Below the pieces are notes generated by a model. The model saw only the letters and a program-made list of their open reading frames with translations. It was not told the DNA's origin and ran no database searches. Shown piece after piece: positions 9,670 through 26,973 of a DNA stretch of 64,000 nucleotides. Origin of the DNA: Melioribacteraceae bacterium (GTDB lineage Bacteria > Bacteroidota > Ignavibacteria > Ignavibacteriales > Melioribacteraceae); the NCBI GenBank assembly GCA_021739765.1, contig JAIPBD010000021.1, positions 2,453-66,452 of the forward strand, read 5' to 3'. Each line of letters opens with the position of its first letter. Position 1 is the stretch's first letter. Position numbers and translations under genes: made by a program.

Positions 9670-9680
9670 TTTTCTTTACC

Positions 9681-10379: not shown

Positions 10380-10400
10380 GTTTTGTTTGGTTATAACATC

Positions 10401-10416
10401 CCAATTGTGATGCCAA
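10401..10416 (-). promoter_or_regulatory. Candidate sigma-54 promoter (TTGGCAT-N5-TTGG) for the GcvH-like/NrfCD operon
   Basis: The minus strand reads ttggcatcacaattgg, with GG and TTG at canonical spacing, about 22 nt upstream of the ATG at 10379. The -12 element is GG rather than GC. Confidence 0.3.
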
Positions 10417-10773
10417 CAATTTTTATCAAGTTTACAAACCACCTAACTTATTGTTTTATAACAAGTTACATGAAGTTGGCTGATTATCTTTGGAATGAGC
10501 ACGAAGTTGGGAGTGATGAATATTTCAACACTCCGGTCTTGTCCTTTGTGGAAAAATTCATCAATACCCTTGAAGGGGTTGATTTTATTGAGGATCGGGA
10601 GTGTTGAATTTCTTTACATAGGTGTGTTGAATTATTCTACAACTTTTGACGATAATGTGATTAAAAGTTGTTCAGAAAGTTCAATTCAACTCAGAATTGA
10701 ATTATTTACTCCATCGAACTTTGCATTATGCGGGAGAGGTTTGTGGAGGCGAAAATTAATTCTAAATGTTGGC

Positions 10774-12615: not shown

Positions 12616-14856
12616 ATGATGAAATATATTTTCTTACTTTTTCTTGGATTCATGACTTTGCAAGCGCAAGATGAAAATGAATCTTGTTTCGATTGCCATT
12701 CAGATCAAGAATTAACCAAGGAGCACAACGGTAAAGAAATATCACTTTTCGTAGAGGCCGGTAAATTTTCTGAGTCGGTACATGCTGATATGTTGTGTGT
12801 TGATTGCCACGAAGATGTTGATCCGGAAGATCTTCCGCATGATGAGGAATTAGAGAAAGTTGATTGTTCAAATTGCCATGATACCGAAGAATTCAATGAA
12901 GGCATTCACTCCGCGAAAAATATTGAATGCTATGATTGCCATTCTAAGCATGAGATTCAATTCACAAGTAATTTAATTGAAAACCAGGTTGATTTCTGTA
13001 CCACCTGCCATCAAAAACCTTCGGTAAAAAATTATACTAAAAGTGTTCACTTTGCCACATCGAAAGATGGTGAAGGCCCAAAATGTTTGGATTGCCACGG
13101 CAGTTCAGCGCATGGGATAAAAGATGCAAAATTAACAGAACCAGAGCTCCACGAAATGTGCGCTTCCTGTCACAAGGATGCTGTTGTTGATTTTGAGAAT
13201 AGTTTGCATGGCAAAGCTCTTTCACGAAATCAATTTTTGGCTCCAAATTGTATTACTTGCCATAACTCACACGAAATCAGATCGGCGAAGGATGTTAAAT
13301 CTAAAACTTATGTGATGAATATTCCTAACCTTTGCGGTGACTGCCATAAAGACGGTACGACGGTTTCAGCGCAAAAGGGGATTGGTCAGCGGCACATTCT
13401 GGCGAATTATTCACAATCAATTCATGGTGACGGTTTATTTAGAAGAGGATTGACTGTGACGGCAGTTTGTACAAGTTGTCATTTTTCGCACAAAATTTTA
13501 CCGCATGAAAATCCAAACTCTTCAATTAATAGAGATAACATTGCAAATACTTGTATGCAGTGTCATAGCCAGATTGAGACGGTTCATCAAAAAGTTATTA
13601 ACGGTGAATTGTGGGAAAAAGAACCGCATAAAATTCCCGCATGTATCGAATGCCATCAGCCGCATGAAGTTAGAAGAGTCTTTTACGAAGAACGCCTTGA
13701 TGATGAAATGTGTATGGATTGTCATAGTCGGAAGGACATTTCCAAAACCGTAGATGGGAAAAAGGTTTCGTTGTTTGTTGATGCAGATGAAGTTCATGGT
13801 TCAGCACACAAAGAAAATTCTTGTATAAAATGTCATACAAATGTCAGTACCGAAAACAATCCGGTCTGTTTAAGCAGCGGCAAAGTGGATTGCTCGATTT
13901 GTCATGCGGAAGCGGTTGAAGATTATACTGCGAGCACACATGGCCAATTGCACGCGGCAAATGATTCCGATGCACCTTATTGTACTGACTGTCATGGAGA
14001 TCACGGGATAAAAGTTAAAGCGGATGTTAAGTCTGTAACTTTCAAGCAAAATATTCCGATGCTTTGCGGTGAATGCCATAAAGAAGGCGGAGTCGCGGCT
14101 AAAAGATATAAAGGCGAAGATCATAATATTTTTAGCAATTATCAGATGAGTATACACGGTAAGGGATTGAGTAAAAGCGGATTGTTAGTAACCGCGACTT
14201 GCACCAATTGCCACACAACACATAGAGAACTTCCCGTCGCTGATATTACTTCCTCGATTAACCCGGTAAATATTGCCGAAACATGTGCAACTTGTCATCT
14301 GGGTGTTTATGAAGATTTTAAAGAAAGTGTACACAGTCCGCTGGTAACAAAAACAGATAAAAAACTTCCCGCTTGTAACGATTGTCATCTTTCACACACA
14401 ATTGAACGAGTTGGGGAGGAAGATTTTAGACTGCAAATTTTGAATCAATGCGGTAAATGCCACGAAGAAGTAACAAAAACTTATTTCGATACATTCCACG
14501 GGAAAGTATCAAAATTGGGTTCGGACAAAACAGCGAGATGTAATGACTGTCATGGTTCTCATAATATTCTTCCGCCTATTAATCCAAATTCAACTCTTAG
14601 CAGAGATAATATCGTCGAGACTTGTAAAACTTGTCATCCCAACTCAAATAGAAAATTTGTCGGGTATTTAACTCATGCAACACATCATGATAAGGACAAA
14701 TATCCATTCCTTTTTTATACATTCTGGTTTATGTCAATTTTACTTGTTAGTACTTTCGCATTTTTCGGATTGCATACATTACTATGGCTACCAAGAGGAC
14801 TTGCAGAGAAACGGAAACAAAGAAAAGCTAAGAAAAATCAGCCGCCTAAGGAATAA
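12616..14856 (+). CDS. 23-heme c-type cytochrome with signal peptide and C-terminal TM anchor
   Basis: 23 CxxCH motifs counted in the translation. N-terminal signal MMKYIFLLFLGFMTLQAQ. C-terminal helix FLFYTFWFMSILLVSTFAFFGL followed by a basic tail. Confidence 0.9.
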   Translation: MMKYIFLLFLGFMTLQAQDENESCFDCHSDQELTKEHNGKEISLFVEAGKFSESVHADMLCVDCHEDVDPEDLPHDEELEKVDCSNCHDTEEFNEGIHSAKNIECYDCHSKHEIQFTSNLIENQVDFCTTCHQKPSVKNYTKSVHFATSKDGEGPKCLDCHGSSAHGIKDAKLTEPELHEMCASCHKDAVVDFENSLHGKALSRNQFLAPNCITCHNSHEIRSAKDVKSKTYVMNIPNLCGDCHKDGTTVSAQKGIGQRHILANYSQSIHGDGLFRRGLTVTAVCTSCHFSHKILPHENPNSSINRDNIANTCMQCHSQIETVHQKVINGELWEKEPHKIPACIECHQPHEVRRVFYEERLDDEMCMDCHSRKDISKTVDGKKVSLFVDADEVHGSAHKENSCIKCHTNVSTENNPVCLSSGKVDCSICHAEAVEDYTASTHGQLHAANDSDAPYCTDCHGDHGIKVKADVKSVTFKQNIPMLCGECHKEGGVAAKRYKGEDHNIFSNYQMSIHGKGLSKSGLLVTATCTNCHTTHRELPVADITSSINPVNIAETCATCHLGVYEDFKESVHSPLVTKTDKKLPACNDCHLSHTIERVGEEDFRLQILNQCGKCHEEVTKTYFDTFHGKVSKLGSDKTARCNDCHGSHNILPPINPNSTLSRDNIVETCKTCHPNSNRKFVGYLTHATHHDKDKYPFLFYTFWFMSILLVSTFAFFGLHTLLWLPRGLAEKRKQRKAKKNQPPKE

Positions 14857-14858
14857 AA

Positions 14859-15704
14859 ATGAAAAACAAAGAACAAGAAATATATATACAGAGATTTGAC
14901 GCTTATTCCAGAATTCTTCACATTCTGATAATTACAAGCTTTCTATCTCTTGCATTAACGGGGATGATTATCAAATTCTCGGGCTATCCCACTTTTCAAT
15001 TTATATCTGATCTGTTGGGCGGATACGAAGTTACCGGATTTATTCACAGAGCAGCCGCCTTTGTTACTTTTGGTTACTTTTTTCTCCACATCTATTATCT
15101 GATTCGAAAATTGGTAAATAAGGATATGGACCCAAAATATTTTTATTCAGGAGAAAATTCACTCGTTCCGAATAAAAATGATTTTAAAGAATTCGTTCAA
15201 ACTATGAAATGGTTTTTGGGCGTTGGACCTCGTCCGCGATATGGAAGATGGACATATTGGGAAAAATTCGATTATTTCGCCGTCTTTTGGGGAGTCGCGG
15301 TAATTGGATTGAGCGGATTAATATTATGGTTCCCAGAATTTTTTACTAATCTTGGGTTACCGGGATGGTTTATTAACGTATCGACAATAATTCACAGCGA
15401 TGAAGCTCTTCTTGCTACCGGTTTCATTTTTACGGTTCATTTTTTCAACACTCACTTCCGACCGGATAAATTTCCTATGGATCCTGTTATTTTTACAGGT
15501 TGCGTGCCTTTGGAGGAATTCAAAGAAGATCGTCCGAGGGAATATGAAAGATTAATAAACACCGGAACACTTGAAGAACGAATAGTAAATCCACCTTCCT
15601 CAGCTCTTTTAAAAGTTGCGAAAATCTTTGGATTTACTGCTTTTACAATAGGATTGATGATTATAGTATTAATCATATATACTATGATATTTGTATATCA
15701 ATAA
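14859..15704 (+). CDS. Membrane di-heme cytochrome b (FdnI/HydC/PhsC-like)
   Basis: Starts 3 nt after the 23-heme gene. Has 4-5 TM helices with conserved His residues (ILHILII, FIHRAAAF..FFLHIYY, IIHSDEAL..FTVHFF). Paralogous to the C-terminus of the next gene. Confidence 0.75.
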   Translation: MKNKEQEIYIQRFDAYSRILHILIITSFLSLALTGMIIKFSGYPTFQFISDLLGGYEVTGFIHRAAAFVTFGYFFLHIYYLIRKLVNKDMDPKYFYSGENSLVPNKNDFKEFVQTMKWFLGVGPRPRYGRWTYWEKFDYFAVFWGVAVIGLSGLILWFPEFFTNLGLPGWFINVSTIIHSDEALLATGFIFTVHFFNTHFRPDKFPMDPVIFTGCVPLEEFKEDRPREYERLINTGTLEERIVNPPSSALLKVAKIFGFTAFTIGLMIIVLIIYTMIFVYQ

Positions 15705-15721
15705 TAACTTGGAAACATAAA

Positions 15722-18127
15722 ATGATTGCTGAATTTTCTCGTAAACTATTAATAATGTTGGTTTTGACAACCTTTGCTGTTCAAGGCCAAGACTTTGAAT
15801 GTCTCGATTGTCATGATAACCTGATTGAAAAGTCCTCCGCACATTTTGAAGTAATCGAGTGTGGAGACTGCCATTCCGATGTTGAAGACGAAGAGCACAT
15901 GGATACTGGAGCAGCAAAAGTAAAATGTGCTGATTGCCACGATGAATACGCCGAGAATTATAAGTCGAACATTCACTTCCGTTTGGGCGATAAAGTCCCA
16001 AATCCCCCGGATTGTAAATCATGCCACGGCGAACATGAAATAGTTTCTCCTTCGCTGGTAAAAAATAAAGTGAAGTATTATTGCTCCGATTGCCATGCGG
16101 GGAATGTTGTTTTAGCAAACCCTTATCACACCGAAGCTGTAAGCGAGAATATTTGTGCTGATTGCCACGATATTGACGAACCAAATTTACAGCTGACAAA
16201 TTCTGTGCATAGTGATTTAGAATGCGCTGACTGCCATAATTATATTTCAAATAATTTAGAAGACCACCCGGATAATGTTTCATTTAAACAAACAGCGGAT
16301 TGTTATTTGTGCCATAATGACGTCGCGTTAATCCATAGAGAAAGTATTCACGGAATTTCACTCGAAGAAGGTGTTGAAGAAGCAGCGCAATGTTGGGATT
16401 GTCATAATGGACATAATGTCGTTCACGTAAAAGATCCTGCAAGTCCGGTTGCTCCAAAAAATATTACAGCGACATGCGCGACTTGCCACGATGATTCTCA
16501 AATGGCACAAAAATTTAATATCGCGATTGAAAATCCGGGCGAAATGTATTCACTCTCGGTTCATGGAAAGAAAAACGCTGAGGGACTCGAAGCCGCGAAT
16601 TGTGTTTCTTGCCACGGCGGCCATGATATTTACACTGTTATCAATCCGAAATCATCAATTTCGCCTTATAATTTACCGGAGACTTGCGGTAAATGTCATG
16701 CTGATCAGACAGATGAGTATACTCAATCAATTCATTGGATTCGCGCGCTAAAAGGCGAAAGAATGTCTCCGATTTGTAATGACTGCCATAGCGAACACCA
16801 AATTGAAGAAATTCATGGGGACGATGCACAAGCTGCAATTAATTTGCTCCAAGAGCAAACATGTTTCGAGTGCCACGAAAGCTCAATAATTGCAAAACGG
16901 TATGGTAAAAAATCCGGTGAGCCAAATCTATATCGAGATAGTTATCATGGTTTAGCGGTTATGAGAGGTGATAAAGACGCGGCAATGTGTATCGATTGTC
17001 ATGGGGTTCACAAAATATTACCGAATGAACATCCCGAGTCGGAAGTCGGTGACTTGAAAGTAACGGAAACCTGTCAAAAATGTCATCCCGAAGCGACAGA
17101 AGTGTTTTCAAAAAGTTATTCTCACAGATCAACATCAGAAGAAGCCGCGAAAGTTGAATCGATTGTTACCAATCTTTATTTCTGGCTGATTGTGTTGGTG
17201 ATTGGCGGAATGGTAGTTCACAATCTTTTGATTTTTGTTTACGAAATAAAAAACAAGCGTAAAAAGGAAAAGAATGTAATTGTTATTCCGAGATTTTCAA
17301 AAAACGAAGTTGTTCAACATTTTCTGCTTCTTACAACTTTTATTACTCTTGTTATTACCGGGTTTGCCTTAAAATTCCCAAATAGTTTTTGGGCATCAGG
17401 TTTGTTGGAACTCGGTATGATTGAACCCGTCCGGCAAATTGTACATAGAGTTGCCGGTGTGCTGATGCTTCTTGTCGGTTTTTATCATGTATTTTATCTC
17501 TTTGTAACTGCACGAGGACGTGATGTGCTTAAAGAACTTCTCCCGAAGTTGGATGATGCCAGACACGCAATGGATAATATTCTCTACTACACCAGAATCA
17601 GAAAAGAGAAACCAAAATTCAATCAATATGATTATGCCGAAAAAGCGGAATATTGGGCATTGATTTGGGGTACATTCGTAATGGGAGTTACCGGATTTAT
17701 TCTTTGGTTCCCAACAATTATTGGTGATTGGGCGCCGGTATGGTTCATTAAAGTTTCGGAAATTATTCATTATTATGAAGCCATACTTGCCTCGTTGGCG
17801 ATTCTCGTTTGGCATTGGTTCTTTGTCATTTTCCATCCCGGCGAATATCCGATGAGTTTTACATGGATTGATGGAAATATGTCACTTACCCATTACAGAA
17901 AACATCATGAAGGTCATTTCAGAAGATTGCTTTTGAATTGGTATGAAAACAAAAACAATGATAAAAAGCTCAATAATTATACAAAGATGGTATTTAAGAA
18001 ATTCGAAGAATTCGGATTAAAGGCCGATGATGTATTTAACAATGAATTAATAAATGATCCCGAATTGAGATTTTGGTTGGATTCGGTTACTGAGAAGAAA
18101 ACTGATAATTATTTCGATAATGAATAA
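15722..18127 (+). CDS. Fusion of a 16-heme cytochrome c with a cytochrome b membrane domain (CbcL-like architecture)
   Basis: 16 CxxCH motifs in aa 1-470. A TM helix is followed by a b-type domain (VVQHFLLL, IVHRVAGV..FYHVFY, IIHYYEAI..VWHWFF) that can be aligned with the product of 14859-15704. Confidence 0.9.
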   Translation: MIAEFSRKLLIMLVLTTFAVQGQDFECLDCHDNLIEKSSAHFEVIECGDCHSDVEDEEHMDTGAAKVKCADCHDEYAENYKSNIHFRLGDKVPNPPDCKSCHGEHEIVSPSLVKNKVKYYCSDCHAGNVVLANPYHTEAVSENICADCHDIDEPNLQLTNSVHSDLECADCHNYISNNLEDHPDNVSFKQTADCYLCHNDVALIHRESIHGISLEEGVEEAAQCWDCHNGHNVVHVKDPASPVAPKNITATCATCHDDSQMAQKFNIAIENPGEMYSLSVHGKKNAEGLEAANCVSCHGGHDIYTVINPKSSISPYNLPETCGKCHADQTDEYTQSIHWIRALKGERMSPICNDCHSEHQIEEIHGDDAQAAINLLQEQTCFECHESSIIAKRYGKKSGEPNLYRDSYHGLAVMRGDKDAAMCIDCHGVHKILPNEHPESEVGDLKVTETCQKCHPEATEVFSKSYSHRSTSEEAAKVESIVTNLYFWLIVLVIGGMVVHNLLIFVYEIKNKRKKEKNVIVIPRFSKNEVVQHFLLLTTFITLVITGFALKFPNSFWASGLLELGMIEPVRQIVHRVAGVLMLLVGFYHVFYLFVTARGRDVLKELLPKLDDARHAMDNILYYTRIRKEKPKFNQYDYAEKAEYWALIWGTFVMGVTGFILWFPTIIGDWAPVWFIKVSEIIHYYEAILASLAILVWHWFFVIFHPGEYPMSFTWIDGNMSLTHYRKHHEGHFRRLLLNWYENKNNDKKLNNYTKMVFKKFEEFGLKADDVFNNELINDPELRFWLDSVTEKKTDNYFDNE

Positions 18128-18154: not shown

Positions 18155-18457
18155 ATGTACGCAAGGTTAACAACTTTCCACATTCCAATCAGTAAAACTG
18201 ATGAAGCTGTGGATATTTATAAAAACAGTATAATTCCTGCAGCCGAAAACCAAGAAGGATTTGTTGAAGCGTATTTTTTAATTAATAAAAATGCGGGAAA
18301 ATTTATTTCAATGACGGTCTGGCAAGATGTTGAATTTGCTGTTGCAAACCAAAAAACCGGATATTATCAAGCGCAAATTGATAAACTTGCTCATTTGCAA
18401 GTCGTTTCGCCTGAAATTGAGGGCTATGAAGTTGCAGCCAGAGAGTGCAAAATCTGA
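18155..18457 (+). CDS. ABM-like (dimeric alpha/beta barrel) small protein
   Basis: 100 aa. The pattern ARLTTFHI...GFVEAYFL.....FISMTVWQD.E is typical of the antibiotic-biosynthesis-monooxygenase fold. Confidence 0.6.
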   Translation: MYARLTTFHIPISKTDEAVDIYKNSIIPAAENQEGFVEAYFLINKNAGKFISMTVWQDVEFAVANQKTGYYQAQIDKLAHLQVVSPEIEGYEVAARECKI

Positions 18458-18553
18458 TTTATCAGTTTGCCTATTTGTTGTATTTATTATATTTTAATGG
18501 AAATAAAAGATTCTTTTATCTTTTGATGAAATAAAACCTAAATGGAGGATGCA

Positions 18554-19099
18554 ATGAAATACAGAAATCTTTTTATCGTTGCGATTGCACTTATTTTTGC
18601 AGTAACAACTAACGCACAAGACAAATTTGAATACGTCGGAGTTAAGACATGTGGTATGTGTCATAAAAAAGCTGACGACGGCGAGCAATTGAAAATTTGG
18701 GAAGCTTCTGCACACGCAAACGCATATAAGACTCTTCAAACCGAAGAAGCAGACAAAATTGCTGCTGAAAAGGGATTTAAAACCAAAGCCGCAGAAACAG
18801 CTGATTGTTTGAAATGCCATGTTTCCGGACATGGAGTCGATGCTAAATTGATCGGCAAAAAATTCAAGATGGAAGATGGCGTGCAATGTGAAACTTGCCA
18901 TGGTCCGGGCTCTGAATACAAATCTAAAAAAGTGATGGAAAACAGAGAAGAAGCTGTTAAAAATGGAATGTTGGTTTTTGAAGATGTTGATAAAGAACTT
19001 TGCCAAACATGCCACAATGAAGAAAGTCCTACTTTCGTAAAATTTGATTACAAAGAAATGTGGGCAAAAATCGCACATCCGATTCCTGCAGCAAAATAA
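18554..19099 (+). CDS. Periplasmic tetraheme cytochrome c (c554-like)
   Basis: Signal peptide MKYRNLFIVAIALIFAVTTNAQ. Four motifs: CGMCH, CLKCH, CETCH, CQTCH. Confidence 0.85.
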   Translation: MKYRNLFIVAIALIFAVTTNAQDKFEYVGVKTCGMCHKKADDGEQLKIWEASAHANAYKTLQTEEADKIAAEKGFKTKAAETADCLKCHVSGHGVDAKLIGKKFKMEDGVQCETCHGPGSEYKSKKVMENREEAVKNGMLVFEDVDKELCQTCHNEESPTFVKFDYKEMWAKIAHPIPAAK

Positions 19100-19115
19100 A
19101 TTGGAATTCCAACAA

Positions 19116-20384
19116 ATGAAAAAATTTTTATTCGTATTGTTTGTGTTATGCCTGAGTTTTTCAACTCAGGCACAACATTTCTCAGGTAGATTTTCTTCTT
19201 CCTTGTACTCGTTCGAAAGATTTACCGATAAGCAAAACTCAGAAACGAACCTTCGCTCATTTCAAACTTTATATTTTAATCTGGGCAATAAAGATTACTC
19301 ATTAAAATCAAGATTGAATCTTGAAACTAATTTGATGAATTCGCTTGACAACGATCCGAGGCTCAGATTCTATAATCTTTATGTCGAAGCCAGAAATATA
19401 TTTGATATCGCAACCGTAAAATTGGGAAGACAAACCCTTTTTAACAGTGCGGCCGGCGGATTATTTGACGGGCTGAGTTTTAAAGCAAATTATTCTATGT
19501 TCAAATTCGAAGGTTACTTTGGCGGGAATGTACCGGCTTATCAAAAACTGGCAATCATCGATAATTTTGGCGACAATTATTTGCTGGGCGGAAAAATATC
19601 TGCATATCCACTCGAAAAAGTAAAGGTTGCCGTTTCATATATCAATAAAAACTACAAACCTCAAGATTATTTAGCAAATCGACTTGATACCTTGAATAAT
19701 CCGATAACATTATTGATCGAACAAAATTCGAATCAATTTGAATTTGTATCCGCGGAAGCTTCTTATTTTGATGATAAATTTTTGACCGTATTTTCAAAAA
19801 TTGAATATGACTTGAATTTTGCAACCGCATCCAAATTTGAAGTTAGCGGAAGATACTCACAAATCGATGATCTCGGAGTTAGTTTTTATTATAATTTCCG
19901 TGAACCGCGAATTCGTTATAACTCCATTTTTTCTGTTTTTAACTACGGAAGTACTCAGGAAATTGAAGGTGGACTGGATTATCGGTTAACACCCGAGATT
20001 CAGTTAATGACAAAATTTGGAAATGTAACGTATGAAGATGATGATGCTCAACGTTACACATTAGGATTTAATACCATTTACGGAAATATAAGTTACCGTG
20101 TTTCTACCGGTTATACCGGTGAGCTAAATTCACTTTCCGCATATACGGCAAAATCTTTTATGGATGGAATGATCACTCCATCAGTCGGAGTTTCATTTAC
20201 AGGTTACAAATTATCAAAAGATGAAGAAGAGAAATCAATAACTTCCGTTCTTGCCGGAATGAATTACAGACCGATGCGGAATTTATCTTTTGATTTGCAA
20301 GGTCAATTTTTTAATAATCCAATTTATTCCAATGATTTCCGTGTACTGTTTAAAGTGAATCATTGGTTTAATACTAACTTTTGA
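19116..20384 (+). CDS. Outer-membrane beta-barrel protein (porin-like)
   Basis: Signal peptide MKKFLFVLFVLCLSFSTQAQ. Alternating hydrophobic beta-strand pattern rich in Y/G/N/S. C-terminal ..NHWFNTNF ends in an aromatic residue. No Cys or heme motifs. Confidence 0.7.
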   Translation: MKKFLFVLFVLCLSFSTQAQHFSGRFSSSLYSFERFTDKQNSETNLRSFQTLYFNLGNKDYSLKSRLNLETNLMNSLDNDPRLRFYNLYVEARNIFDIATVKLGRQTLFNSAAGGLFDGLSFKANYSMFKFEGYFGGNVPAYQKLAIIDNFGDNYLLGGKISAYPLEKVKVAVSYINKNYKPQDYLANRLDTLNNPITLLIEQNSNQFEFVSAEASYFDDKFLTVFSKIEYDLNFATASKFEVSGRYSQIDDLGVSFYYNFREPRIRYNSIFSVFNYGSTQEIEGGLDYRLTPEIQLMTKFGNVTYEDDDAQRYTLGFNTIYGNISYRVSTGYTGELNSLSAYTAKSFMDGMITPSVGVSFTGYKLSKDEEEKSITSVLAGMNYRPMRNLSFDLQGQFFNNPIYSNDFRVLFKVNHWFNTNF

Positions 20385-20392
20385 TAATTAGT

Positions 20393-21598
20393 ATGAAGAT
20401 AAAGATATATTATCCAGTTCTTGCTTTATTCCTTTTTGTGCTTATAGCAGCATTTTCATTTTCAAATGAAGGGGAAAAGCCCTCAAACAATGAAGTAATT
20501 AAATTTTCGCATCAACTGCACGGCGAGATGATGTCTTGTGCGGAATGTCACACAGGCGTTGTTGAAAGCTCATCATTGAGTGATCGGTTGCTTCCGGAAA
20601 AAGATGTTTGTGCTGATTGCCACGATGTTGACGATGACGAAAATTGCCAAATGTGCCATTATGAAGAGGTTTATGAACCATTGGAAAGTGGGAAATCAAA
20701 GTTGATTTTCGACCATCAATTTCATGGCAATTTAGATGAACTTGAATGCGAAAGCTGCCACACGGGATTAGACGAAGTCGACTATAGTTTCGAATCAAAA
20801 TCTGTTTTACCGGGAATGTCGCAATGTTACACTTGCCACAACGAAAATGCTGTTGCAACGAACGCTTGTGAGGCATGCCATATTGAAACACACGATCTAC
20901 TCCCCGAAACTCACGCAATTGTGAACTTTTTAGATAATCACAGATTTATGGCAACAGAAATGGATGCTAATTGCGCGATGTGTCATGATGACGATTTTTG
21001 CGGTACATGTCATGAATCTACAACAATGCTCGGAGTCGCAAACACAGCATCTGATTTTTACACACCATATTCACCGCACACTTATACGGACGGCATCAAG
21101 CAACAACAAATTACCCGCGCCCATGATTTAACATACAGATTTACACATGGAATTGACGCAAAAGGTAAAACTAACGAATGTTCAACGTGTCACAATCAGG
21201 AAACATTCTGTGTTGAATGCCATAATATGGAAGGTGGAGATATTGCTATCGAAGGTTTTGTTCCTCATTCACATTCAGTTGATAATTTTGTGACTTTTGG
21301 GGTTGGAACCGGCGGTGGAGAACATGCTGTTCAAGCTAGAAGGGATATCGAAAATTGCGCTTCATGCCATGATACGCAAGGTGCTGATCCGAATTGTATT
21401 TTATGCCACACCGATCCGGATGGTATAAAAGGAACAAATCCTCGAACACATGAAACAAGTTTTATGTCGGATCTTAACGGTGATTGGCATAATGATGACG
21501 GATCTGTTTGTTACAATTGCCATACTGATGCATTTGCGACGGCTAAAGTTGCCGGTAACGGATTCTGTGGTTATTGCCACGGAGCAAATGTTGACTAA
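20393..21598 (+). CDS. 14-heme c-type cytochrome (c3/c7-type repeats), periplasmic or membrane-anchored
   Basis: 14 CxxCH motifs. N-terminal hydrophobic segment IYYPVLALFLFVLIAAFSF. F.H..H....C..CH units are typical of class III cytochromes. Overlaps the barrel gene stop. Confidence 0.85.
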   Translation: MKIKIYYPVLALFLFVLIAAFSFSNEGEKPSNNEVIKFSHQLHGEMMSCAECHTGVVESSSLSDRLLPEKDVCADCHDVDDDENCQMCHYEEVYEPLESGKSKLIFDHQFHGNLDELECESCHTGLDEVDYSFESKSVLPGMSQCYTCHNENAVATNACEACHIETHDLLPETHAIVNFLDNHRFMATEMDANCAMCHDDDFCGTCHESTTMLGVANTASDFYTPYSPHTYTDGIKQQQITRAHDLTYRFTHGIDAKGKTNECSTCHNQETFCVECHNMEGGDIAIEGFVPHSHSVDNFVTFGVGTGGGEHAVQARRDIENCASCHDTQGADPNCILCHTDPDGIKGTNPRTHETSFMSDLNGDWHNDDGSVCYNCHTDAFATAKVAGNGFCGYCHGANVD

Positions 21599-21627
21599 AG
21601 AAATTATAACCTTTTTTGGGAATCGAA

Positions 21628-23673
21628 ATGAAAATTAGAAATATACTGGCTCTCATCTTCTCTTTTCTTTTAATTACAGTCTCTTGTAGTGATATTCAGG
21701 AAGAGTTAAACTCTCCCGCTGAAATAGGAATACATGAAGAGGGATTCGGAGAAGTTGGATCTGATAATTCTCACATTCTTCACTTTCAAAAAGAGAATTG
21801 GAATTTGAAGGATTGCCAACAATGTCATGCTGCTGATTATTCCGGTGGAACTGCCAAATTTAGTTGTTTAACTTGTCATACTGATGAAGCCGGTCCGGAA
21901 GCGTGTAATACTTGTCATGGTGATTTTAGTGATTCTTCAAGAATAGCGCCGCCAACCGATTTGGCGGGAAATATGGAAAGAACCGAGCGCGGAGTTGGAG
22001 CCCATACTTCACATGTTTATGAAAATATGCTTGGTGCCGGAATCAGTTGTTATGAATGTCATCCATCAGCAACCGGCAGCGATGAGAAATATGTCTTTGC
22101 TCATGTTGGAGAATTGCCTGCCGATATGTTATTCGGAACAGTTGCTTCTTTAAATGGAAATCCAACTTACGACTTCGACGCATTAACTTGTCAGAACACT
22201 TATTGTCATGGAAGTTTTTCATTCGATAAACCTACGAACTATAAAGATTACGCTTATACGGCAAATCAAATTGTTGGAAAAAATTCAACAGTTAAATGGA
22301 CTGAAGAATATAATAGCTGCGACGGATGTCACGGTTTGCCTCCAACCGGACATATATATTCAGAATTGAATCAATGTTATTTGTGTCATGCCGATGTAGT
22401 AAATTCTTCAGGTGAAATAATTAATAAACTAAATCATTTGGATGGCGAAAAACAATCAGTTGCTGAGTCTGAACTTGAGAACTGTGCAAAATGTCATGGA
22501 AGCGCCCAGAGCGATGCTCCTCCGGTTTCATTGAGTGGAAGTTCTGATCCCACTGATCGTGGTGTCGGCGAACATGAAAAACATTTACTCACAACTTCTT
22601 TCACAAATCTGATTGAATGCGCCGAATGCCATACAGTTCCGGCAACGTATGACGCCGCAGGACACTTTGACGGCACCCAATACGCTGAAGTATTATTCGG
22701 AACATTGGCCGCATCGGATGGTGCTAATCCGCAATACAGTCAATCCACACTGAATTGTGATAATGTTTATTGCCACGGTGGTTTCGAATTTGAGAAACCG
22801 GCGACTTATGCTGCTTTCGCTTATTCTTCGGATAAAATCAGCGGAAACGATCCTTCGCTAAATTGGACCTCACAAGCTGCAAATGCAGAATGTGGAACAT
22901 GTCACGGTTTACCTCCAACCGGACATATTTATTCAGAATTAAACCAATGCTATTTGTGTCATGCTGATGTGGTTAACGCAAGCGGTGAAATTATAAGTAA
23001 AGACAATCATATCAACGCCGAGAAAAATGTAATAGCCCAAAATGATCTTGAAACTTGTAATTATTGTCATGGTGACAAAAATGCCGATCCGTCAGTTCTA
23101 GCAAATGCGGCTCCTCCGGTTGCCCTAAATGGAAGTTCTGATCCGAGTTACAGAGGGGTTGGCGCTCATGAAATTCATGTTCGAACAACGGAAATTTCAA
23201 ATTCAGCAGATTGCGCGGAATGTCATACTGTTCCGGCAACCTTCGATGCTCCCGGCCATTTTGATAATTCCCAATATGCGGAAGTCAATTTTGGTGAAAT
23301 AATCTCTGTTTCGCAGGCATCTTCTGCCGCTGAATTCAAATCTGCCGGTACTACATGCGCAAATACATATTGCCATGGTGGATTCAAAAACGGAAACATG
23401 GAAAATATAGTAAATTGGACTGGTGGCTCGGAAGAGGCGAAATGCGGTACATGCCATGGTGACCCCGATACCGGAAATCCTTTACCAACGGGAACTCACC
23501 CTCAAGTTCAAGATTGTTCACGTTGCCATCCTTCAGTCGTCTCTGTGACGGACGGTCATTATTCTTTTGTCGATAAATCAAAACATATTGATGGTAAAGT
23601 TACAATCGGTGGAACAACATTCGATTGGACCGATCTTCAATTAAAAAAATTAAAAGCCGGGATTGACTACTAA
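21628..23673 (+). CDS. Lipoprotein multiheme cytochrome with three ~190-aa modules (14 CxxCH + 3 CX4CH)
   Basis: Lipobox LITVSC. Modules contain CxxCHG, CxECH, CxNxYCHG (CX4CH), CxxCHGxPPTGH and CxxCH. The DNA of modules 1 and 2 is partly near-identical. Confidence 0.85.
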   Translation: MKIRNILALIFSFLLITVSCSDIQEELNSPAEIGIHEEGFGEVGSDNSHILHFQKENWNLKDCQQCHAADYSGGTAKFSCLTCHTDEAGPEACNTCHGDFSDSSRIAPPTDLAGNMERTERGVGAHTSHVYENMLGAGISCYECHPSATGSDEKYVFAHVGELPADMLFGTVASLNGNPTYDFDALTCQNTYCHGSFSFDKPTNYKDYAYTANQIVGKNSTVKWTEEYNSCDGCHGLPPTGHIYSELNQCYLCHADVVNSSGEIINKLNHLDGEKQSVAESELENCAKCHGSAQSDAPPVSLSGSSDPTDRGVGEHEKHLLTTSFTNLIECAECHTVPATYDAAGHFDGTQYAEVLFGTLAASDGANPQYSQSTLNCDNVYCHGGFEFEKPATYAAFAYSSDKISGNDPSLNWTSQAANAECGTCHGLPPTGHIYSELNQCYLCHADVVNASGEIISKDNHINAEKNVIAQNDLETCNYCHGDKNADPSVLANAAPPVALNGSSDPSYRGVGAHEIHVRTTEISNSADCAECHTVPATFDAPGHFDNSQYAEVNFGEIISVSQASSAAEFKSAGTTCANTYCHGGFKNGNMENIVNWTGGSEEAKCGTCHGDPDTGNPLPTGTHPQVQDCSRCHPSVVSVTDGHYSFVDKSKHIDGKVTIGGTTFDWTDLQLKKLKAGIDY

Positions 23674-23686
23674 TCCCGGGCTTTTC
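23657..23686 (+). terminator. Rho-independent terminator overlapping the stop codon
   Basis: ccgggatt-gactact-aatcccgg forms an 8-bp stem, followed by gcttttct. Confidence 0.6.
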
Positions 23687-23720: not shown

Positions 23721-23842
23721 TGTTTCATGCTAAAGCGTTTTGTTTCAAAACGTTTCATGAAACACTGTGTTTCAAATCCTCTAACTCCTTATAAAATAAC
23801 ATCTTAGTCAACTCTCTTTCATTAATGAAACAACTTGTTTCA
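23721..23842. promoter_or_regulatory. Cluster of (T/C)GTTTCA half-sites including palindromes (candidate enhancer/UAS)
   Basis: tgtttca at 23721, 23741 and 23768; cgtttca at 23751; palindrome gtttcatgaaac at 23752-23763; tgaaac-N5-gtttca at 23826-23842. Confidence 0.45.
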
Positions 23843-23884
23843 CCCTCAGTTTAAATAAAGCGCGATTTAAGTCTATAATCATCA

Positions 23885-23899
23885 TGGCACTCGTTTTGA
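23885..23899 (+). promoter_or_regulatory. Candidate sigma-54 promoter TGGCAC-N5-TTGA
   Basis: Perfect -24 TGGCAC with canonical spacing to TTGA (the -12 is GA, not GC). Lies 37 nt upstream of the ATG at 23936. Confidence 0.5.
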
Positions 23900-23935: not shown

Positions 23936-25333
23936 ATGAAAAAGACTATTTCCTCTTTAATTCTATTTTTTACACTATCGATTTTCGTTTCGTTTGGCTG
24001 TCAGGAAGAAGCGGATACGAACATTGCTATTCCGGCAGAAACAGTTGCACAAACCAATTCCTGCGAAGGCTGCCACACAAATTACGATCATCTGAAAAAA
24101 GTATACACACCTGAAGAACCATCAACTGAAGAAAGCCATGGCTGCGGCGGACCTCCGCCGTATTATGAACCCTATGACAGAGTTTATTTAGGTGGTGATG
24201 GTTACAATGAATTCAAGTCTGGTATTCACGGCCAAATCGGATGCGTTGGTTGTCACAATGGTGTTGAAGGTACTTCTGATAAAACCGTGGCTCACTCGGG
24301 AAGTTTTACGGCAAAGCCTTCCTTAAACTCCGAAGATGCGTGTGGTAAATGTCATCCGACCATTGTTGCTCGCGCAAAAAATAGTTTGCACGAACAAGGC
24401 TGGGGACAGAAGGCAATGGTTGTTAGAAGATCGGGAACAGGCACGAGTCCGACGGATTTTCACAATTTGTCTGATCTGATGAAGGAGGGTTACACAAAAA
24501 ACTGTATGAAATGTCACGCAACTTGCGGTGATTGTCATATTGTTCGACCAAATGCAAAAGGAGGGGGATTAGAAAGCGGACATAATTTTGTTAAAACACC
24601 CGATATGCGCGAAACTTGTGTCGGATGCCATGAAAGTCGAGGTGGTCATGCTTATTTCGGAATGGCCATTGGTACAAAACCGGATATTCATTTATCCGAA
24701 GCTGGATTCAATTGTATGGATTGTCACTCAAAAAATGAAGTTCATGGCGACGGAAATATTTATGATCAAAGATACAAAATGCCACTTTTGCCTTCTTGTG
24801 AAGATTGCCATAACGGATTAGAAACAGTCAATCCATTTCACACAAAACATTTCGATTCTTTTAACTGCCAAACCTGCCATTCGCAAGATTATAATAACTG
24901 TGGAAGTTGTCATATAGGTGGTGAAGGCGCAAGAATTGCTTCTCACCAAAAATTCAAAATTGGTTTAAATCCAATCCCGGAAACAAAACCATATCGTTTG
25001 GCAACAGTAAGAGAATCGCTTTCTGCTCCGGATAGTTGGGCGAATTACGGAATTGATAACCTATCCAACTTTGATGTCGCGCCCACTTACAAATACACAA
25101 CTCCTCATAATATTCAAAGGTGGACAACAAGAACAACAATCGATACGGTTTACGATTCTTCCCAACCGGATTGTGCTCAAAGTTGTCATATCGTAAAAAA
25201 TAGTGATGACGGATCGTATATCAATAAAGAATATTACCTATTTGATAGCGACCTCTTAGACTGGGAAAAGAACGCGACAAAAAATGTAGTAGTTGACGGT
25301 CAATTACCTCTGAGTTGGGGAACTGATCTTTAA
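23936..25333 (+). CDS. Lipoprotein multiheme cytochrome c (10 CxxCH + 1 CX3CH)
   Basis: Lipobox VSFGC. Motifs: CEGCH, CVGCH, CGKCH, CMKCH, CGDCH, CVGCH, CMDCH, CEDCH, CQTCH, CGSCH and CAQSCH. Confidence 0.85.
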   Translation: MKKTISSLILFFTLSIFVSFGCQEEADTNIAIPAETVAQTNSCEGCHTNYDHLKKVYTPEEPSTEESHGCGGPPPYYEPYDRVYLGGDGYNEFKSGIHGQIGCVGCHNGVEGTSDKTVAHSGSFTAKPSLNSEDACGKCHPTIVARAKNSLHEQGWGQKAMVVRRSGTGTSPTDFHNLSDLMKEGYTKNCMKCHATCGDCHIVRPNAKGGGLESGHNFVKTPDMRETCVGCHESRGGHAYFGMAIGTKPDIHLSEAGFNCMDCHSKNEVHGDGNIYDQRYKMPLLPSCEDCHNGLETVNPFHTKHFDSFNCQTCHSQDYNNCGSCHIGGEGARIASHQKFKIGLNPIPETKPYRLATVRESLSAPDSWANYGIDNLSNFDVAPTYKYTTPHNIQRWTTRTTIDTVYDSSQPDCAQSCHIVKNSDDGSYINKEYYLFDSDLLDWEKNATKNVVVDGQLPLSWGTDL

Positions 25334-25383
25334 AAAATGATAAATCAAAAAACATCTCAAACAAAATCTCAAGGAGTTACACA

Positions 25384-26367
25384 ATGCAACTAAGAAAAAT
25401 GTATTACCTGTTACTTATTCTTCCTCTAATTATATTTAACACTGCGTGCGAGGACGAGAATACAAACGAACCCGTGGCGATCAACGAAGCACAAGTTTTG
25501 GTTGAATACATGGAAGATAACGGTGACTTTATCAATACCGCCGCTCCTGCAATGATAGTTTCTTCAGATGTGTATGCCAATATTTTGGCTAGCACAGATC
25601 AAGTTATTCTTGATATCAGAAGTGCCGCCGATTTTGCAAATGGACATATTCAAGGCGCTGTAAACGTTACTACGGCTAATATCTTGGATTATTATGAAAC
25701 GAATAACCTCGATTCAAAAAGTGTTGTCGTTATCGCTTGCTATAGTGGTCAAACAGCGGGTTGGGCAACCGGTTTATTAAGATTGCTCGGATATGATAAC
25801 GTAAAAGATCTTAAATGGGGAATGAGCTCATGGAATAGTGCAACCTCAGGAAGTTGGGTAAATAGCATTGGCAATTCTCGTTCAACTTCTCTTGTTACTA
25901 CTGCAACCGCTAAAGCCGCGGTCGGTAATTTACCAACATTAAACACAGGTAAAACAACAGGGGCTGATATTTTAAGAGAGAGAGTTCAAACAGTTTTAAC
26001 CGAAGGGTTTGATGGAGCAAAAGTAACAAATAGCGATGTTTTTACGAATTCGTCTAATTATTATATTGTCAATTACTGGAGTGAAGATCATTACAATTGG
26101 GGACATATCCCAGGCGCAATTCAATACACACCAGGTTCTAGTTTGAAATTAGATGCTGACCTTAAAACATTACCGACAGATCAAACTGTTGCGGTTTACT
26201 GCTATACAGGTCAAACATCTGCTCATGTTGCGGCATACTTAAGGGTTGTTGGTTATGATGCAAAATCAATTGTATACGGCGTAAATGGAATGTCGTACGA
26301 TGCAATGCCGGGTACTAAATTTGTAGAATCAAGCGAAGTTCGTGACTACGCTCTGGTTACTGATTAA
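25384..26367 (+). CDS. Tandem-rhodanese sulfurtransferase lipoprotein
   Basis: Lipobox FNTAC. Two rhodanese domains with active-site loops CYSGQTAGW and CYTGQTSAH. Confidence 0.85.
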   Translation: MQLRKMYYLLLILPLIIFNTACEDENTNEPVAINEAQVLVEYMEDNGDFINTAAPAMIVSSDVYANILASTDQVILDIRSAADFANGHIQGAVNVTTANILDYYETNNLDSKSVVVIACYSGQTAGWATGLLRLLGYDNVKDLKWGMSSWNSATSGSWVNSIGNSRSTSLVTTATAKAAVGNLPTLNTGKTTGADILRERVQTVLTEGFDGAKVTNSDVFTNSSNYYIVNYWSEDHYNWGHIPGAIQYTPGSSLKLDADLKTLPTDQTVAVYCYTGQTSAHVAAYLRVVGYDAKSIVYGVNGMSYDAMPGTKFVESSEVRDYALVTD

Positions 26368-26901: not shown

Positions 26902-26973
26902 GATGCGAATATCCTTTTATCGAACAACCGCTTTCGTTATTTTTAATGAACAAATTTCCACTTTTTGGCTTCG

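What the first reader, a model, noticed from the sequence alone, without database searches (positions are those of the whole stretch)
18554..23673. Porin-cytochrome-like conduit in Geobacter Pcc gene order
The genes appear in the same order as the ombB-omaB-omcB module of Geobacter:
- a periplasmic tetraheme (18554-19099);
- a 423-aa signal-peptide beta-barrel with no Cys that ends in Phe (19116-20384);
- a 14-heme protein whose start overlaps the barrel gene stop (20393-21598);
- a lipobox-bearing 17-site cytochrome (21628-23673), followed by a terminator.

The heme counts are larger than in the Geobacter module.
Basis: partly seen in the sequence, partly recalled or inferred. Interest (0 to 1): 0.75.

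Follow-up and report, generated by a model that had tools for sequence, protein, structure and literature searches.

The report
Ignavibacteria-type porin-cytochrome conduit gene cluster
Four adjacent genes in a Melioribacteraceae genome encode a large outer-membrane barrel and three multi-heme cytochromes, which most likely carry respiratory electrons across the outer membrane; the same cluster was already described in Ignavibacterium album in 2014.

Summary
The four ORFs are at the stated coordinates:
- a c554-like tetraheme;
- a 422-aa barrel;
- a 401-aa cytochrome with 14 CxxCH;
- a 681-aa lipoprotein with 14 CxxCH and 3 CX4CH, followed by a hairpin terminator.

One detail is wrong. The 14-heme gene starts 9 nt after the barrel stop and does not overlap it.

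AlphaFold2 models the barrel with 24 strands (pLDDT 85).

The tetraheme-barrel-14-heme order is kept in 77-78 of 80 related genome loci. A distant Marinimicrobia relative also keeps it. The lipoprotein varies from 7 to 37 heme sites.

This is the Ignavibacterium album pcc cluster IALB_1840-1837 of Shi et al. 2014: periplasmic cytochrome, porin, a 400-aa 14-heme cytochrome, and an outer cytochrome with atypical motifs.

CbcL-like and ImcH-like inner-membrane cytochromes lie upstream, which completes a quinol-to-surface route.

Verdict: a correct reading and a new member of a known kind. Function is inferred and has not been tested in this phylum. Interest is low to moderate.

The parts
18554..19099 (+). 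Periplasmic tetraheme cytochrome, c554-like (181 aa, Sec signal peptide). Proposed shuttle between the inner-membrane quinol oxidases and the conduit. Counterpart of the 'pcc-associated' IALB_1840.
   Evidence: It has 4 CxxCH. It matches PF13435 at E 3e-19 and PDB 1bvb c554 at E 1e-8. A homologue lies directly upstream of the barrel in 78 of 80 loci.
19116..20384 (+). Outer-membrane beta-barrel, 422 aa, with a signal peptide, a C-terminal Phe and 24 predicted strands. Proposed sheath for the 14-heme cytochrome.
   Evidence: The AF2 model has pLDDT 85 and pTM 0.72, with 24 DSSP strands. The best Foldseek matches are FimD/PapC 24-strand barrels, TMq 0.53. It matches no Pfam or NCBIfam model; 19 of 50 homologues hit LptD weakly. 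Homologues number more than 1000, and 426 stretches in species-representative genomes encode a relative.
19533..19577 (+). Barrel loop L4, residues 140-154 (PAYQKLAIIDNFGDN). It is long, conserved and presumed extracellular.
   Evidence: Mean column conservation is 0.75. Most other loops are 2-9 residues long. The extracellular topology is assumed from the usual rule that the N-terminus is periplasmic.
19902..19952 (+). Barrel loop L8, residues 263-279 (EPRIRYNSIFSVFNYGS). It is the most conserved long segment of the family, yet AF2 models part of it with low confidence. It is a candidate contact with a cytochrome partner.
   Evidence: Conservation is 0.89, with invariant P264, Y268, N269, S270, I271 and F275. 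pLDDT is below 50 for residues 268-276.
20393..21598 (+). 14-heme c-type cytochrome, 401 aa, with an N-terminal signal or anchor helix. Proposed heme wire threaded through the barrel. Counterpart of IALB_1838.
   Evidence: It has 14 CxxCH and 29 His. All 63 scored orthologues have 14 heme sites and are 397-407 aa long. The N-terminal half resembles the Geobacter 'nanowire' cytochrome GSU1996 (3ov0, E 1e-7). It lies immediately downstream of the barrel in 77 of 80 loci.
21628..23673 (+). Lipoprotein cytochrome with 17 heme sites, 681 aa: two N-terminal CxxCH plus three tandem 5-heme units (4 CxxCH + 1 CX4CH each). Proposed surface-exposed terminal reductase. Counterpart of IALB_1837.
   Evidence: TIGR01904 matches three times, E 2e-34. 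DNA repeats are 74% identical at 573-600 nt spacing, and the three units align. The lipobox Cys is followed by S-[DE]-[LIV]-x-x-[DE] in most of the 63 proteins compared.
23657..23679 (+). Hairpin terminator at the end of the lipoprotein gene.
   Evidence: The stem has 9 bp, 5 of them G-C, and is followed by a T-rich tail.
12616..18127 (+). Upstream CbcL-like inner-membrane modules, outside the finding: a 23-heme protein with a C-terminal TM helix, a separate cytochrome b (14859-15704), and a 16-heme::cytochrome b fusion (15722-18127). Proposed quinol oxidases that feed the conduit.
   Evidence: Heme counts and TM helices are. The modules are conserved upstream in 46-47 of the 62 loci that reach that far. 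Ignavibacteria proteins of 944 and 952 aa, with many CxxCH sites and C-terminal TM segments listed, are among the CbcL/MtoC/MtrH homologues of PMC6295460.
10838..12331 (-). ImcH-like inner-membrane heptaheme cytochrome, outside the finding and transcribed divergently.
   Evidence: It has 6 CxxCH plus 1 CX3CH and 3 N-terminal TM helices in 497 aa, and a NapC/NirT domain. The Melioribacter roseus ImcH homologue listed in PMC6295460 has the same layout: 488 aa, 7 sites, 3 TM.

Best explanation
This is the Ignavibacteriota version of a porin-cytochrome (Pcc-type) outer-membrane electron conduit. It is orthologous in architecture to IALB_1840-1837 of Ignavibacterium album.

Proposed route (every step is inferred; the evidence for each is given in the For line):
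1. CbcL-like (12616-18127) and ImcH-like (10838-12331) cytochromes oxidise menaquinol at the inner membrane.
2. The soluble c554-like tetraheme carries electrons across the periplasm.
3. The 14-heme cytochrome sits inside the 24-strand barrel as an insulated heme wire. MtrA sits in MtrB in this way.
4. The 17-heme lipoprotein is exported to the cell surface. It docks on the barrel, perhaps on the two long conserved loops, takes electrons from the wire, and passes them to insoluble or extracellular acceptors. Candidates are Fe(III) or Mn(IV) oxides, humics, electrodes or partner cells.

The barrel and the 14-heme cytochrome form a fixed core. The lipoprotein is a swappable, repeat-expandable surface module.
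For: Anatomy:
- Heme counts, signal peptides, lipobox and terminator are all as described.
- Non-motif His residues number 15 for 14 hemes and 19 for 17 hemes. That is enough for bis-His ligation throughout, as expected of electron-transfer hemes.

Barrel:
- It has 24 strands at pLDDT 85.
- Its nearest solved folds are 24-strand usher pores, two strands short of the 26-strand MtrB barrel (strand number from my own knowledge).
- Its loops are tiny except for two long, highly conserved ones.

Co-inheritance:
- The tetraheme is kept in 78 of 80 loci and the 14-heme protein in 77 of 80. The count of 14 heme sites is invariant in all 63 scored.
- In a Marinimicrobia/FCB relative the barrel (22% identity), a 14-heme protein (38%) and a c554-like tetraheme (38%) are still clustered, while the surface lipoproteins are different.

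Surface module:
- The lipoprotein has three TIGR01904 domains, E 2e-34.
- The conserved C-S-[DE]-...-[DE] after the lipid Cys resembles the Bacteroidota lipoprotein export signals SDDDD and SDDFE (PMC5080379).

Literature:
- Shi et al. 2014 describe IALB_1839 as a porin, IALB_1838 as a 400-aa 14-heme cytochrome, IALB_1837 as an outer cytochrome with atypical motifs, and IALB_1840 as periplasmic.
- OmbB-like PCCs are reported in Ignavibacteria MAGs and in M. roseus, which reduces Fe(III).
- Upstream CbcL- and ImcH-type proteins match the published homologue lists.
Against: - No component has been tested biochemically or genetically in any member of Ignavibacteriota that I could find. The M. roseus multi-omics paper does not mention it.
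- Sequence homology to the Geobacter proteins is marginal. IALB_1839 is 19-20% identical to OmbB/OmbC and IALB_1838 about 19% to the OmaB group. I could not compare the window proteins with Geobacter sequences directly.
- I could not model the complex. The AF2 model of the 14-heme protein alone is poor (pLDDT 55), so 'threaded in the barrel' rests on analogy.
- MtrB is not among the top 50 fold matches.
- The direction of electron flow cannot be read from sequence.
Confidence: 0.75

Rival explanations
1. The same conduit runs inward. It takes electrons from extracellular Fe(II), reduced humics, a cathode or a syntrophic partner and passes them to the quinone pool or to periplasmic reductases, as MtoAB and PioAB do.
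For: Porin-cytochrome modules are reversible in principle. Mtr homologues serve Fe(II) oxidation (PMC6344600), and CbcL/MtoC/MtrH-type proteins are proposed for both quinol oxidation and quinone reduction (PMC6295460). The distant relative L081 links the barrel and 14-heme pair to a Rieske/cytochrome b complex, a setting also seen in electron-uptake chains.
Against: Known Fe(II)-oxidising conduits usually lack the large extracellular lipoprotein cytochrome; here one with 17 heme sites is present. Cultured relatives are described as Fe(III) reducers. ImcH-type and CbcL-type proteins were defined genetically in Fe(III)- and electrode-reducing Geobacter.
Confidence: 0.12
2. The barrel is a substrate channel and not a cytochrome sheath. 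It admits soluble acceptors such as polysulfide, selenite, tellurite or chelated metals, which the periplasmic cytochromes then reduce. Geobacter ExtI/ExtKL is now thought to work this way.
For: In Geobacter the 'conduit-like' extHIJKL cluster turned out to encode a selenite-uptake porin, a rhodanese lipoprotein and a pentaheme polysulfide reductase (PMC13510729; PMC6148476). In this window a tandem-rhodanese lipoprotein and a lipoprotein with 11 heme sites lie just downstream. The two co-occur with the cluster in 18 loci.
Against: The rhodanese pair is present in only about a third of loci, whereas the barrel and 14-heme pairing is near-universal. A 24-strand barrel with almost no constricting loops would make an oddly wide, unselective channel. 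None of the window proteins reaches the curated cut-off of the one Ext-operon NCBIfam model that any of them hit: ExtM, 38 bits against a cut-off of 800. The invariant count of 14 hemes suggests a fixed-length wire, not an enzyme.
Confidence: 0.06
3. The barrel is a dedicated translocon, usher-like, that exports the lipoprotein or other cytochromes to the surface and carries no electrons itself.
For: The best structural matches are FimD/PapC usher barrels. The surface partner varies while the barrel is constant.
Against: The similarity is confined to barrel size. There is no plug and there are no periplasmic usher domains (422 aa in total). This model does not explain the strict pairing with a 14-heme protein that is not a lipoprotein. 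The Bacteroidota-type export-signal resemblance points to a general lipoprotein export route.
Confidence: 0.03

Closest known systems
Ignavibacterium album pcc cluster IALB_1840-IALB_1837 (Shi, Fredrickson & Zachara 2014, PMC4245776)
   Same: Same phylum and the same four-gene layout: a periplasmic cytochrome, a porin-like protein, a 400-aa 14-heme 'periplasmic' cytochrome, and an outer-membrane cytochrome with atypical CX(3-15)CH motifs. MAGs labelled Ignavibacterium sp. (L040, L063, L076) carry the same cluster, with 54-55% barrel identity to the window.
   Different: A different family (Melioribacteraceae MAG). The lipoprotein here is a three-unit, 17-site version, where most relatives have 7-11 sites. 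The published transmembrane-motif predictions for Pcc porins range from 18 to 22, whereas AF2 gives 24 strands for this one. I could not fetch the IALB sequences, so orthology is inferred and was not aligned.
Geobacter sulfurreducens OmbB-OmaB-OmcB (Pcc) complex
   Same: The gene order is the same: porin, periplasmic multi-heme cytochrome, lipoprotein multi-heme cytochrome. All three defining elements are present. The lipoprotein carries the CxxxxCH/CxxCH domain whose Pfam model is named for Geobacter. The N-terminal half of the 14-heme protein resembles Geobacter c7-type arrays (GSU1996).
   Different: There are 14 and 17 heme sites instead of 8 and 12. The barrel has 24 strands by AF2 modelling, against published motif-based predictions of 18-22 for Pcc porins. 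Published identity between the Ignavibacterium proteins and OmbB/OmaB is only about 19%, and about 10% to OmcB. There is an extra dedicated tetraheme gene. Regulation is likely by a sigma-54 activator and not a TetR-type OrfR.
Shewanella MtrCAB (PDB 6R2Q)
   Same: The proposed mechanism is the same: a multi-heme wire inside a large barrel, capped by a surface lipoprotein cytochrome.
   Different: There is no sequence relationship. No member of the barrel family hits Pfam MtrB_PioB, and MtrB is absent from the top 50 fold matches. MtrB has 26 strands and MtrA and MtrC have 10 hemes each (own knowledge), against 24 strands and 14 and 17 heme sites here.
Geobacter ExtABCD / ExtEFG / ExtHIJKL clusters
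   Same: These are alternative porin plus cytochrome plus lipoprotein clusters. ExtH is a rhodanese lipoprotein, and a tandem-rhodanese lipoprotein lies 1.7 kb downstream of the window cluster.
   Different: No window protein reaches the cut-off of the one Ext-operon NCBIfam model hit (ExtM, 38 bits against a cut-off of 800). ExtHIJKL lacks an outer cytochrome and now appears to be a sulfur/selenium system.

Membership tests
Porin-cytochrome (Pcc/Ext-type) outer-membrane conduit cluster, architectural definition of Otero et al. 2018 and Shi et al. 2014 | A multi-heme periplasmic c-type cytochrome is encoded in the cluster. | tested here: met
   20393-21598 has 14 CxxCH, a signal peptide and no lipobox. 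The tetraheme at 18554-19099 is also present.
Porin-cytochrome (Pcc/Ext-type) outer-membrane conduit cluster, architectural definition of Otero et al. 2018 and Shi et al. 2014 | An integral outer-membrane beta-barrel, large enough to hold a cytochrome (published Pcc range 18-22 transmembrane motifs), is encoded next to it. | tested here: met
   The AF2 model has 24 strands at pLDDT 85. Its best fold matches are 24-strand usher barrels. It has a C-terminal Phe and a signal peptide.
Porin-cytochrome (Pcc/Ext-type) outer-membrane conduit cluster, architectural definition of Otero et al. 2018 and Shi et al. 2014 | [quoted passage not shown] | tested here: met
   21628-23673 has a lipobox Cys that is conserved in the 63 proteins compared, and 17 heme sites. 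Surface exposure itself was not tested.
Porin-cytochrome (Pcc/Ext-type) outer-membrane conduit cluster, architectural definition of Otero et al. 2018 and Shi et al. 2014 | The proteins form a complex that transfers electrons across a membrane (proteoliposome assay, Liu et al. 2014). | not testable with these tools
   This needs purification and biochemistry. No report for any member of Ignavibacteriota was found.
OmbB/OmaB/OmcB homologous family of Geobacter (sequence homology) | Significant sequence similarity of the barrel to OmbB and of the cytochromes to OmaB and OmcB. | tested here: inconclusive
   Geobacter sequences could not be fetched. Published tables give 19-20% identity for IALB_1839 to OmbB/OmbC, about 19% for IALB_1838 to the OmaB group, and about 10% for IALB_1837 to OmcB. 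Of the 150 best hits in an exhaustive profile search, the 10 most distant full-length ones were looked up by name. The named ones come from FCB-group and candidate-phylum MAGs, and none was labelled Geobacter. Only the lipoprotein's TIGR01904 domain is a clear sequence link.
Ignavibacteriota pcc cluster (IALB_1840-1837 type) | The gene order is tetraheme, porin, roughly 400-aa 14-heme cytochrome, lipoprotein cytochrome with CX4CH motifs. | tested here: met
   Searches show it for the window. Searches show it for 80 related loci, including Ignavibacterium sp. MAGs. Direct alignment to the IALB proteins was not possible.
MtrAB/PioAB/MtoAB family | The barrel belongs to Pfam MtrB_PioB and is paired with a decaheme MtrA-type cytochrome. 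| tested here: not met
   None of 50 barrel homologues hits MtrB_PioB at E<=1. The 14-heme protein scores 18.7 bits against the DmsE/MtrA decaheme model, whose cut-off is 192.
CxxxxCH/CxxCH domain c-type cytochromes (TIGR01904 / PF09698) | A match to the domain model above its curated cut-off. | tested here: met
   The lipoprotein scores 116.9 bits against a cut-off of 27, in three stretches. NCBI's own name for it is 'CxxxxCH/CxxCH domain-containing protein'.

The most novel reading that the evidence does not exclude
The barrel and the strictly 14-heme cytochrome, together with the c554-like tetraheme, may form a distinct lineage of trans-outer-membrane conduit that arose independently. Sequence homology to Mtr was tested and not found; homology to Geobacter OmbB/OmaB is marginal at best. 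The lineage would be ancestral to several FCB-group phyla (Ignavibacteriota, Marinimicrobia/Fidelibacterota). Its fixed 24-strand, 14-heme core would accept interchangeable surface modules, exported by the Bacteroidota-type lipoprotein export signal: heme-repeat lipoproteins with 7 to 37 sites, a mono-heme lipoprotein, or an EB_dh heme-b lipoprotein. The two long conserved loops would form the docking site.
Probability: 0.3. Interest if true: 0.5.

Novelty: new member of a known kind. Interest (0 to 1): 0.27.

Why it matters
Ignavibacteriota are common in sediments, aquifers, hot springs and anode biofilms, and their role in iron and humic cycling rests almost wholly on clusters like this one.

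The window adds a further Melioribacteraceae example with a complete gene set from the quinol pool to the cell surface. The comparative data sharpen three points:
- The barrel is about 24 strands, larger than the 18-22 transmembrane motifs published for Pcc porins.
- The count of 14 hemes is invariant.
- The surface cytochrome is the evolvable part.

None of this changes the current picture of extracellular electron transfer. It gives concrete targets for a first biochemical test in this phylum: the two long conserved loops, the export-signal-like motif, and cultured hosts that carry orthologues.

Tried and rejected
- Structure of the 14-heme protein. The AF2 run on 55 sequences gave pLDDT 55, with only the N-terminal 165 residues confident. 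Foldseek then returned only ACIII ActA-like pentaheme matches. This could not test for a rod shape.
- First attempt at that model.
- Sequence search of the PDB with the barrel profile and with the lipoprotein gave nothing meaningful. No solved Pcc or Ext porin was found this way.
- NCBIfam at E<=10 for the barrel gave only noise.
- The exhaustive profile search of 1.84 billion representatives found 401 relatives, but lists only 150 and carries no names. A link to Geobacter OmbB could be neither shown nor excluded.
- The single genome-collection scan returned the 80 closest loci. I. album JCM 16511 and the M. roseus type strain were not among them, so the IALB and MROS proteins were not aligned directly.
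- Sigma-54 promoter search. There is one near-consensus site, at 23885 before the downstream gene for the lipoprotein with 11 heme sites. The number of hits in the window is no more than chance, and none was found before 18554 or 12616.
- The M. roseus multi-omics paper has no data on this cluster.
- The alternative TTG starts at 20381 and 21616 and the ATG at 18542 were rejected. The TTG-20381 and ATG-18542 products are absent from the protein collection, while the ATG forms at 18554, 20393 and 21628 are there and carry the NCBI accessions. The orthologues also begin MK....

Full report
**Observation**

- 18554-19099 encodes a 181-aa protein with a Sec signal peptide and 4 CxxCH. It matches Pfam Cytochrome_C554 (E 3e-19) and Nitrosomonas cytochrome c554 (1bvb, E 1e-8).
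- 19116-20384 encodes 422 aa, not 423. It has a signal peptide, ends in NTNF, and has one Cys (residue 12) that lies in the signal peptide. No Pfam or NCBIfam model matches it.
- 20393-21598 encodes 401 aa with 14 CxxCH.
- 21628-23673 encodes 681 aa with 14 CxxCH and 3 CX4CH. The lipobox reads ...ITVS|C.

A 9-bp hairpin with a T-rich tail straddles the last stop codon. NCBI's annotation of the source MAG, a Melioribacteraceae bacterium, uses the same starts. It names the proteins 'cytochrome c family protein', 'hypothetical protein', 'cytochrome C' and 'CxxxxCH/CxxCH domain-containing protein'.

The only wrong detail is the claimed start/stop overlap. The barrel stop is at 20382-20384 and the ATG at 20393.

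**The barrel**

I built an alignment of 50 homologues, 53-67% identical to the window protein. AlphaFold2 on it gave pLDDT 85 and pTM 0.72, with 24 beta-strands spanning residues 21-421.

Foldseek against the PDB puts the 24-strand FimD/PapC usher barrels first (TMq 0.53). The 18-strand Occ/AlgE channels follow. MtrB is not in the top 50.

By the standard barrel-radius relation R = b/(2 sin(pi/n) cos alpha), with b = 4.4 Å and alpha about 40 degrees, n = 24 gives a C-alpha diameter near 44 Å. That is about 92% of a 26-strand MtrB-size barrel. This is my own estimate; I could not read the model coordinates.

Loops on both faces are only 2-9 residues long, with two exceptions: residues 140-154 and 263-279. 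Both would be extracellular under the usual topology, and both are among the most conserved parts of the family. The second holds six invariant residues, yet part of it (268-276) is the only stretch modelled below pLDDT 50. A conserved segment that is not confidently folded on its own is what a partner-contact surface would look like. That reading is an inference.

**The cytochromes**

The 14-heme protein has 29 His, enough for bis-His ligation of every heme. Its N-terminal half is related to c7-type arrays such as the Geobacter dodecaheme GSU1996 (3ov0, E 1e-7). Its own AF2 model was too poor to use (pLDDT 55).

The lipoprotein has two N-terminal CxxCH followed by three tandem units of about 190 aa. 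Each unit carries 4 CxxCH and 1 CX4CH. The units are visible as 74%-identical DNA repeats spaced 573-600 nt apart and as three TIGR01904 matches (E 2e-34).

In the 63 proteins compared (62 loci plus the window), the lipid-modified Cys is followed by S (59 of 63), then D or E (55 of 63), a hydrophobic residue, and more acidic residues at +6 and +7. This resembles the experimentally defined Bacteroidota lipoprotein export signals SDDDD and SDDFE (Lauber et al. 2016, PMC5080379). Ignavibacteriota are a sister group of Bacteroidota. The motif therefore argues, indirectly, for surface exposure and against inner-membrane retention.

**Conservation**

The barrel family has more than 1000 homologues in the 5.8-billion-protein set. 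It has 401 representatives at E<=1e-3 among 1.84 billion cluster representatives. In a collection of one genome per species, 426 stretches encode a relative.

In the 80 best loci:
- a tetraheme homologue lies just upstream in 78;
- a 14-heme homologue lies just downstream in 77;
- all 63 scored orthologues of the latter have exactly 14 heme sites and are 397-407 aa long.

The lipoprotein that follows is the variable part. Its heme-site totals are 7 (29 loci), 9 (19), 11 (8), 12, 15, 17 (the window and L013), 29 and 37.

A distant relative in a Marinimicrobia/FCB-group MAG keeps the core: barrel at 22% identity, a 14-CxxCH cytochrome at 38%, and a c554-like tetraheme at 38%. There the core sits beside a Rieske/cytochrome b pair. 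The surface proteins are different: a mono-heme lipoprotein and an EB_dh-domain lipoprotein.

So the barrel and the 14-heme protein are a co-inherited core, and the surface module is exchangeable. This echoes the published remark that Pcc outer cytochromes do not co-evolve with their porins.

**Context in the window**

Upstream on the same strand are two CbcL-like modules:
- a 23-heme protein with a C-terminal TM helix, followed by a separate cytochrome b;
- a 16-heme::cytochrome b fusion.

These are conserved in 46-47 of the 62 loci that extend far enough. They correspond to the Ignavibacteria proteins of 944 and 952 aa, with many CxxCH sites and C-terminal TM segments, that Shi's group listed as CbcL/MtoC/MtrH homologues.

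Divergently transcribed is an ImcH-like protein with 7 heme sites and 3 TM helices. The M. roseus ImcH homologue in the same list has this layout.

Downstream are a lipoprotein with 10 CxxCH and 1 CX3CH, a tandem-rhodanese lipoprotein, and a PAS/sigma-54 activator.

The window thus holds a full candidate route from menaquinol to the cell surface.

**What is already known**

Shi, Fredrickson and Zachara (2014) listed a pcc cluster in Ignavibacterium album JCM 16511:
- IALB_1839, a porin-like protein;
- IALB_1837, an outer-membrane cytochrome with atypical motifs;
- IALB_1840, an associated periplasmic cytochrome.

That is the architecture of this window, gene for gene. Later metagenomic work reports 'OmbB-like' or 'Geobacter-like' PCCs in Ignavibacteria MAGs and in Melioribacter roseus, an Fe(III) reducer.

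Their supplementary tables put IALB_1839 at 19-20% identity to OmbB/OmbC and 11-12% to other Pcc porins. Homology to Geobacter is therefore marginal. Otero et al. stress that even within Geobacter the conduit clusters share no homology and are recognised by three architectural elements. All three elements are met here.

I could not fetch Geobacter or I. album sequences for direct comparison. Orthology to IALB_1837-1840 is an inference from phylum, gene order, length and heme counts.

**Mechanism and rivals**

The best-supported reading is an outward electron conduit (confidence about 0.75). Quinol oxidation by the CbcL- and ImcH-like proteins feeds the tetraheme shuttle. The shuttle feeds the 14-heme wire sheathed by the 24-strand barrel. 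The wire feeds the surface 17-heme lipoprotein, which reduces extracellular acceptors. Every step is inferred from architecture, conservation and analogy with MtrCAB and Geobacter Pcc. None is shown experimentally in this phylum.

Rivals:
- Inward electron flow (0.12).
- The barrel as a substrate channel for sulfur or selenium chemistry, as is now proposed for Geobacter ExtI/ExtKL (0.06). The downstream rhodanese prompts this, but it is present in only about a third of loci.
- An usher-like export pore (0.03). The only support is the fold match in barrel size.

**Verdict**

The thing is a new member, in a Melioribacteraceae MAG, of a kind already described for the same phylum.

Four modest additions come from this work:
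- the 24-strand model;
- the two long conserved loops;
- the resemblance to a lipoprotein export signal;
- the evidence that the barrel, 14-heme and tetraheme core reaches beyond Ignavibacteriota with swapped surface partners.

Noticed in passing
window 10838-12331 (-): An ImcH-like inner-membrane cytochrome: 497 aa, 6 CxxCH plus 1 CX3CH, three N-terminal TM helices and a NapC/NirT domain. It is transcribed divergently from the CbcL-like genes.
   Followed up: partly
window 12616-18127 (+): Two tandem CbcL-like modules. One is split: a 23-heme protein followed by a separate 281-aa cytochrome b. The other is fused: 16 hemes::cytochrome b, 801 aa. They are conserved upstream of the barrel in 46-47 of 62 loci.
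   Followed up: partly
window 23936-26367 (+): A lipoprotein with 10 CxxCH and 1 CX3CH (C-QEEAD after the lipobox) and a tandem-rhodanese lipoprotein (C-EDEN). The two co-occur near the cluster in 18 loci. This recalls the Geobacter ExtH rhodanese lipoprotein and hints at surface sulfur or selenium chemistry.
   Followed up: partly
window 23752-23899: A perfect palindrome GTTTCATGAAAC at 23752, further TGTTTCA copies, and a near-consensus sigma-54 element TGGCACTCGTTTTGA at 23885, all ahead of the 23936 gene. A PAS/sigma-54 activator is encoded at 26965-28308. The number of promoter-pattern hits in the window is no more than chance.
   Followed up: partly
window 5337-6941 (-) and 3998-5347 (-): A histidine kinase with one CxxCH and one CX4CH motif and two TM helices (12-30 and 201-219); the positions of the motifs relative to the helices were not checked. 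It may be a heme-c redox sensor. A sigma-54 response regulator follows it. Similar kinases with these heme motifs occur in related loci such as L003 and L006.
   Followed up: no
window 7734-10442 (-): An NrfD-like membrane protein, a 4Fe-4S dicluster protein and a protein with a GCV_H-like domain lie downstream of the ImcH-like gene. This may be a further quinol-linked module.
   Followed up: no
L081 4944-12221 (Marinimicrobia/FCB-group MAG contig): The most distant context examined. The gene order is: EB_dh lipoprotein, barrel (22% identity), 14-CxxCH cytochrome (38%), mono-heme lipoprotein, Rieske protein, cytochrome b, 9-heme cytochrome, c554-like tetraheme (38%). The barrel, 14-heme and tetraheme core predates Ignavibacteriota and here pairs with a bc-type complex.
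   Followed up: partly
window 18155-18457 (+): A 100-aa ABM-domain (antibiotic biosynthesis monooxygenase-like) ORF sits between the CbcL-like fusion and the tetraheme gene. It has no counterpart in any of the 80 related loci.
   Followed up: no
window 20393-21598: The homologue search found no 100% hit for the 14-heme protein, although the exact sequence is in the collection. The representative of its 90% cluster is a 65-aa fragment (MCF8431081.1), which hides it from the representative-based search.
   Followed up: yes
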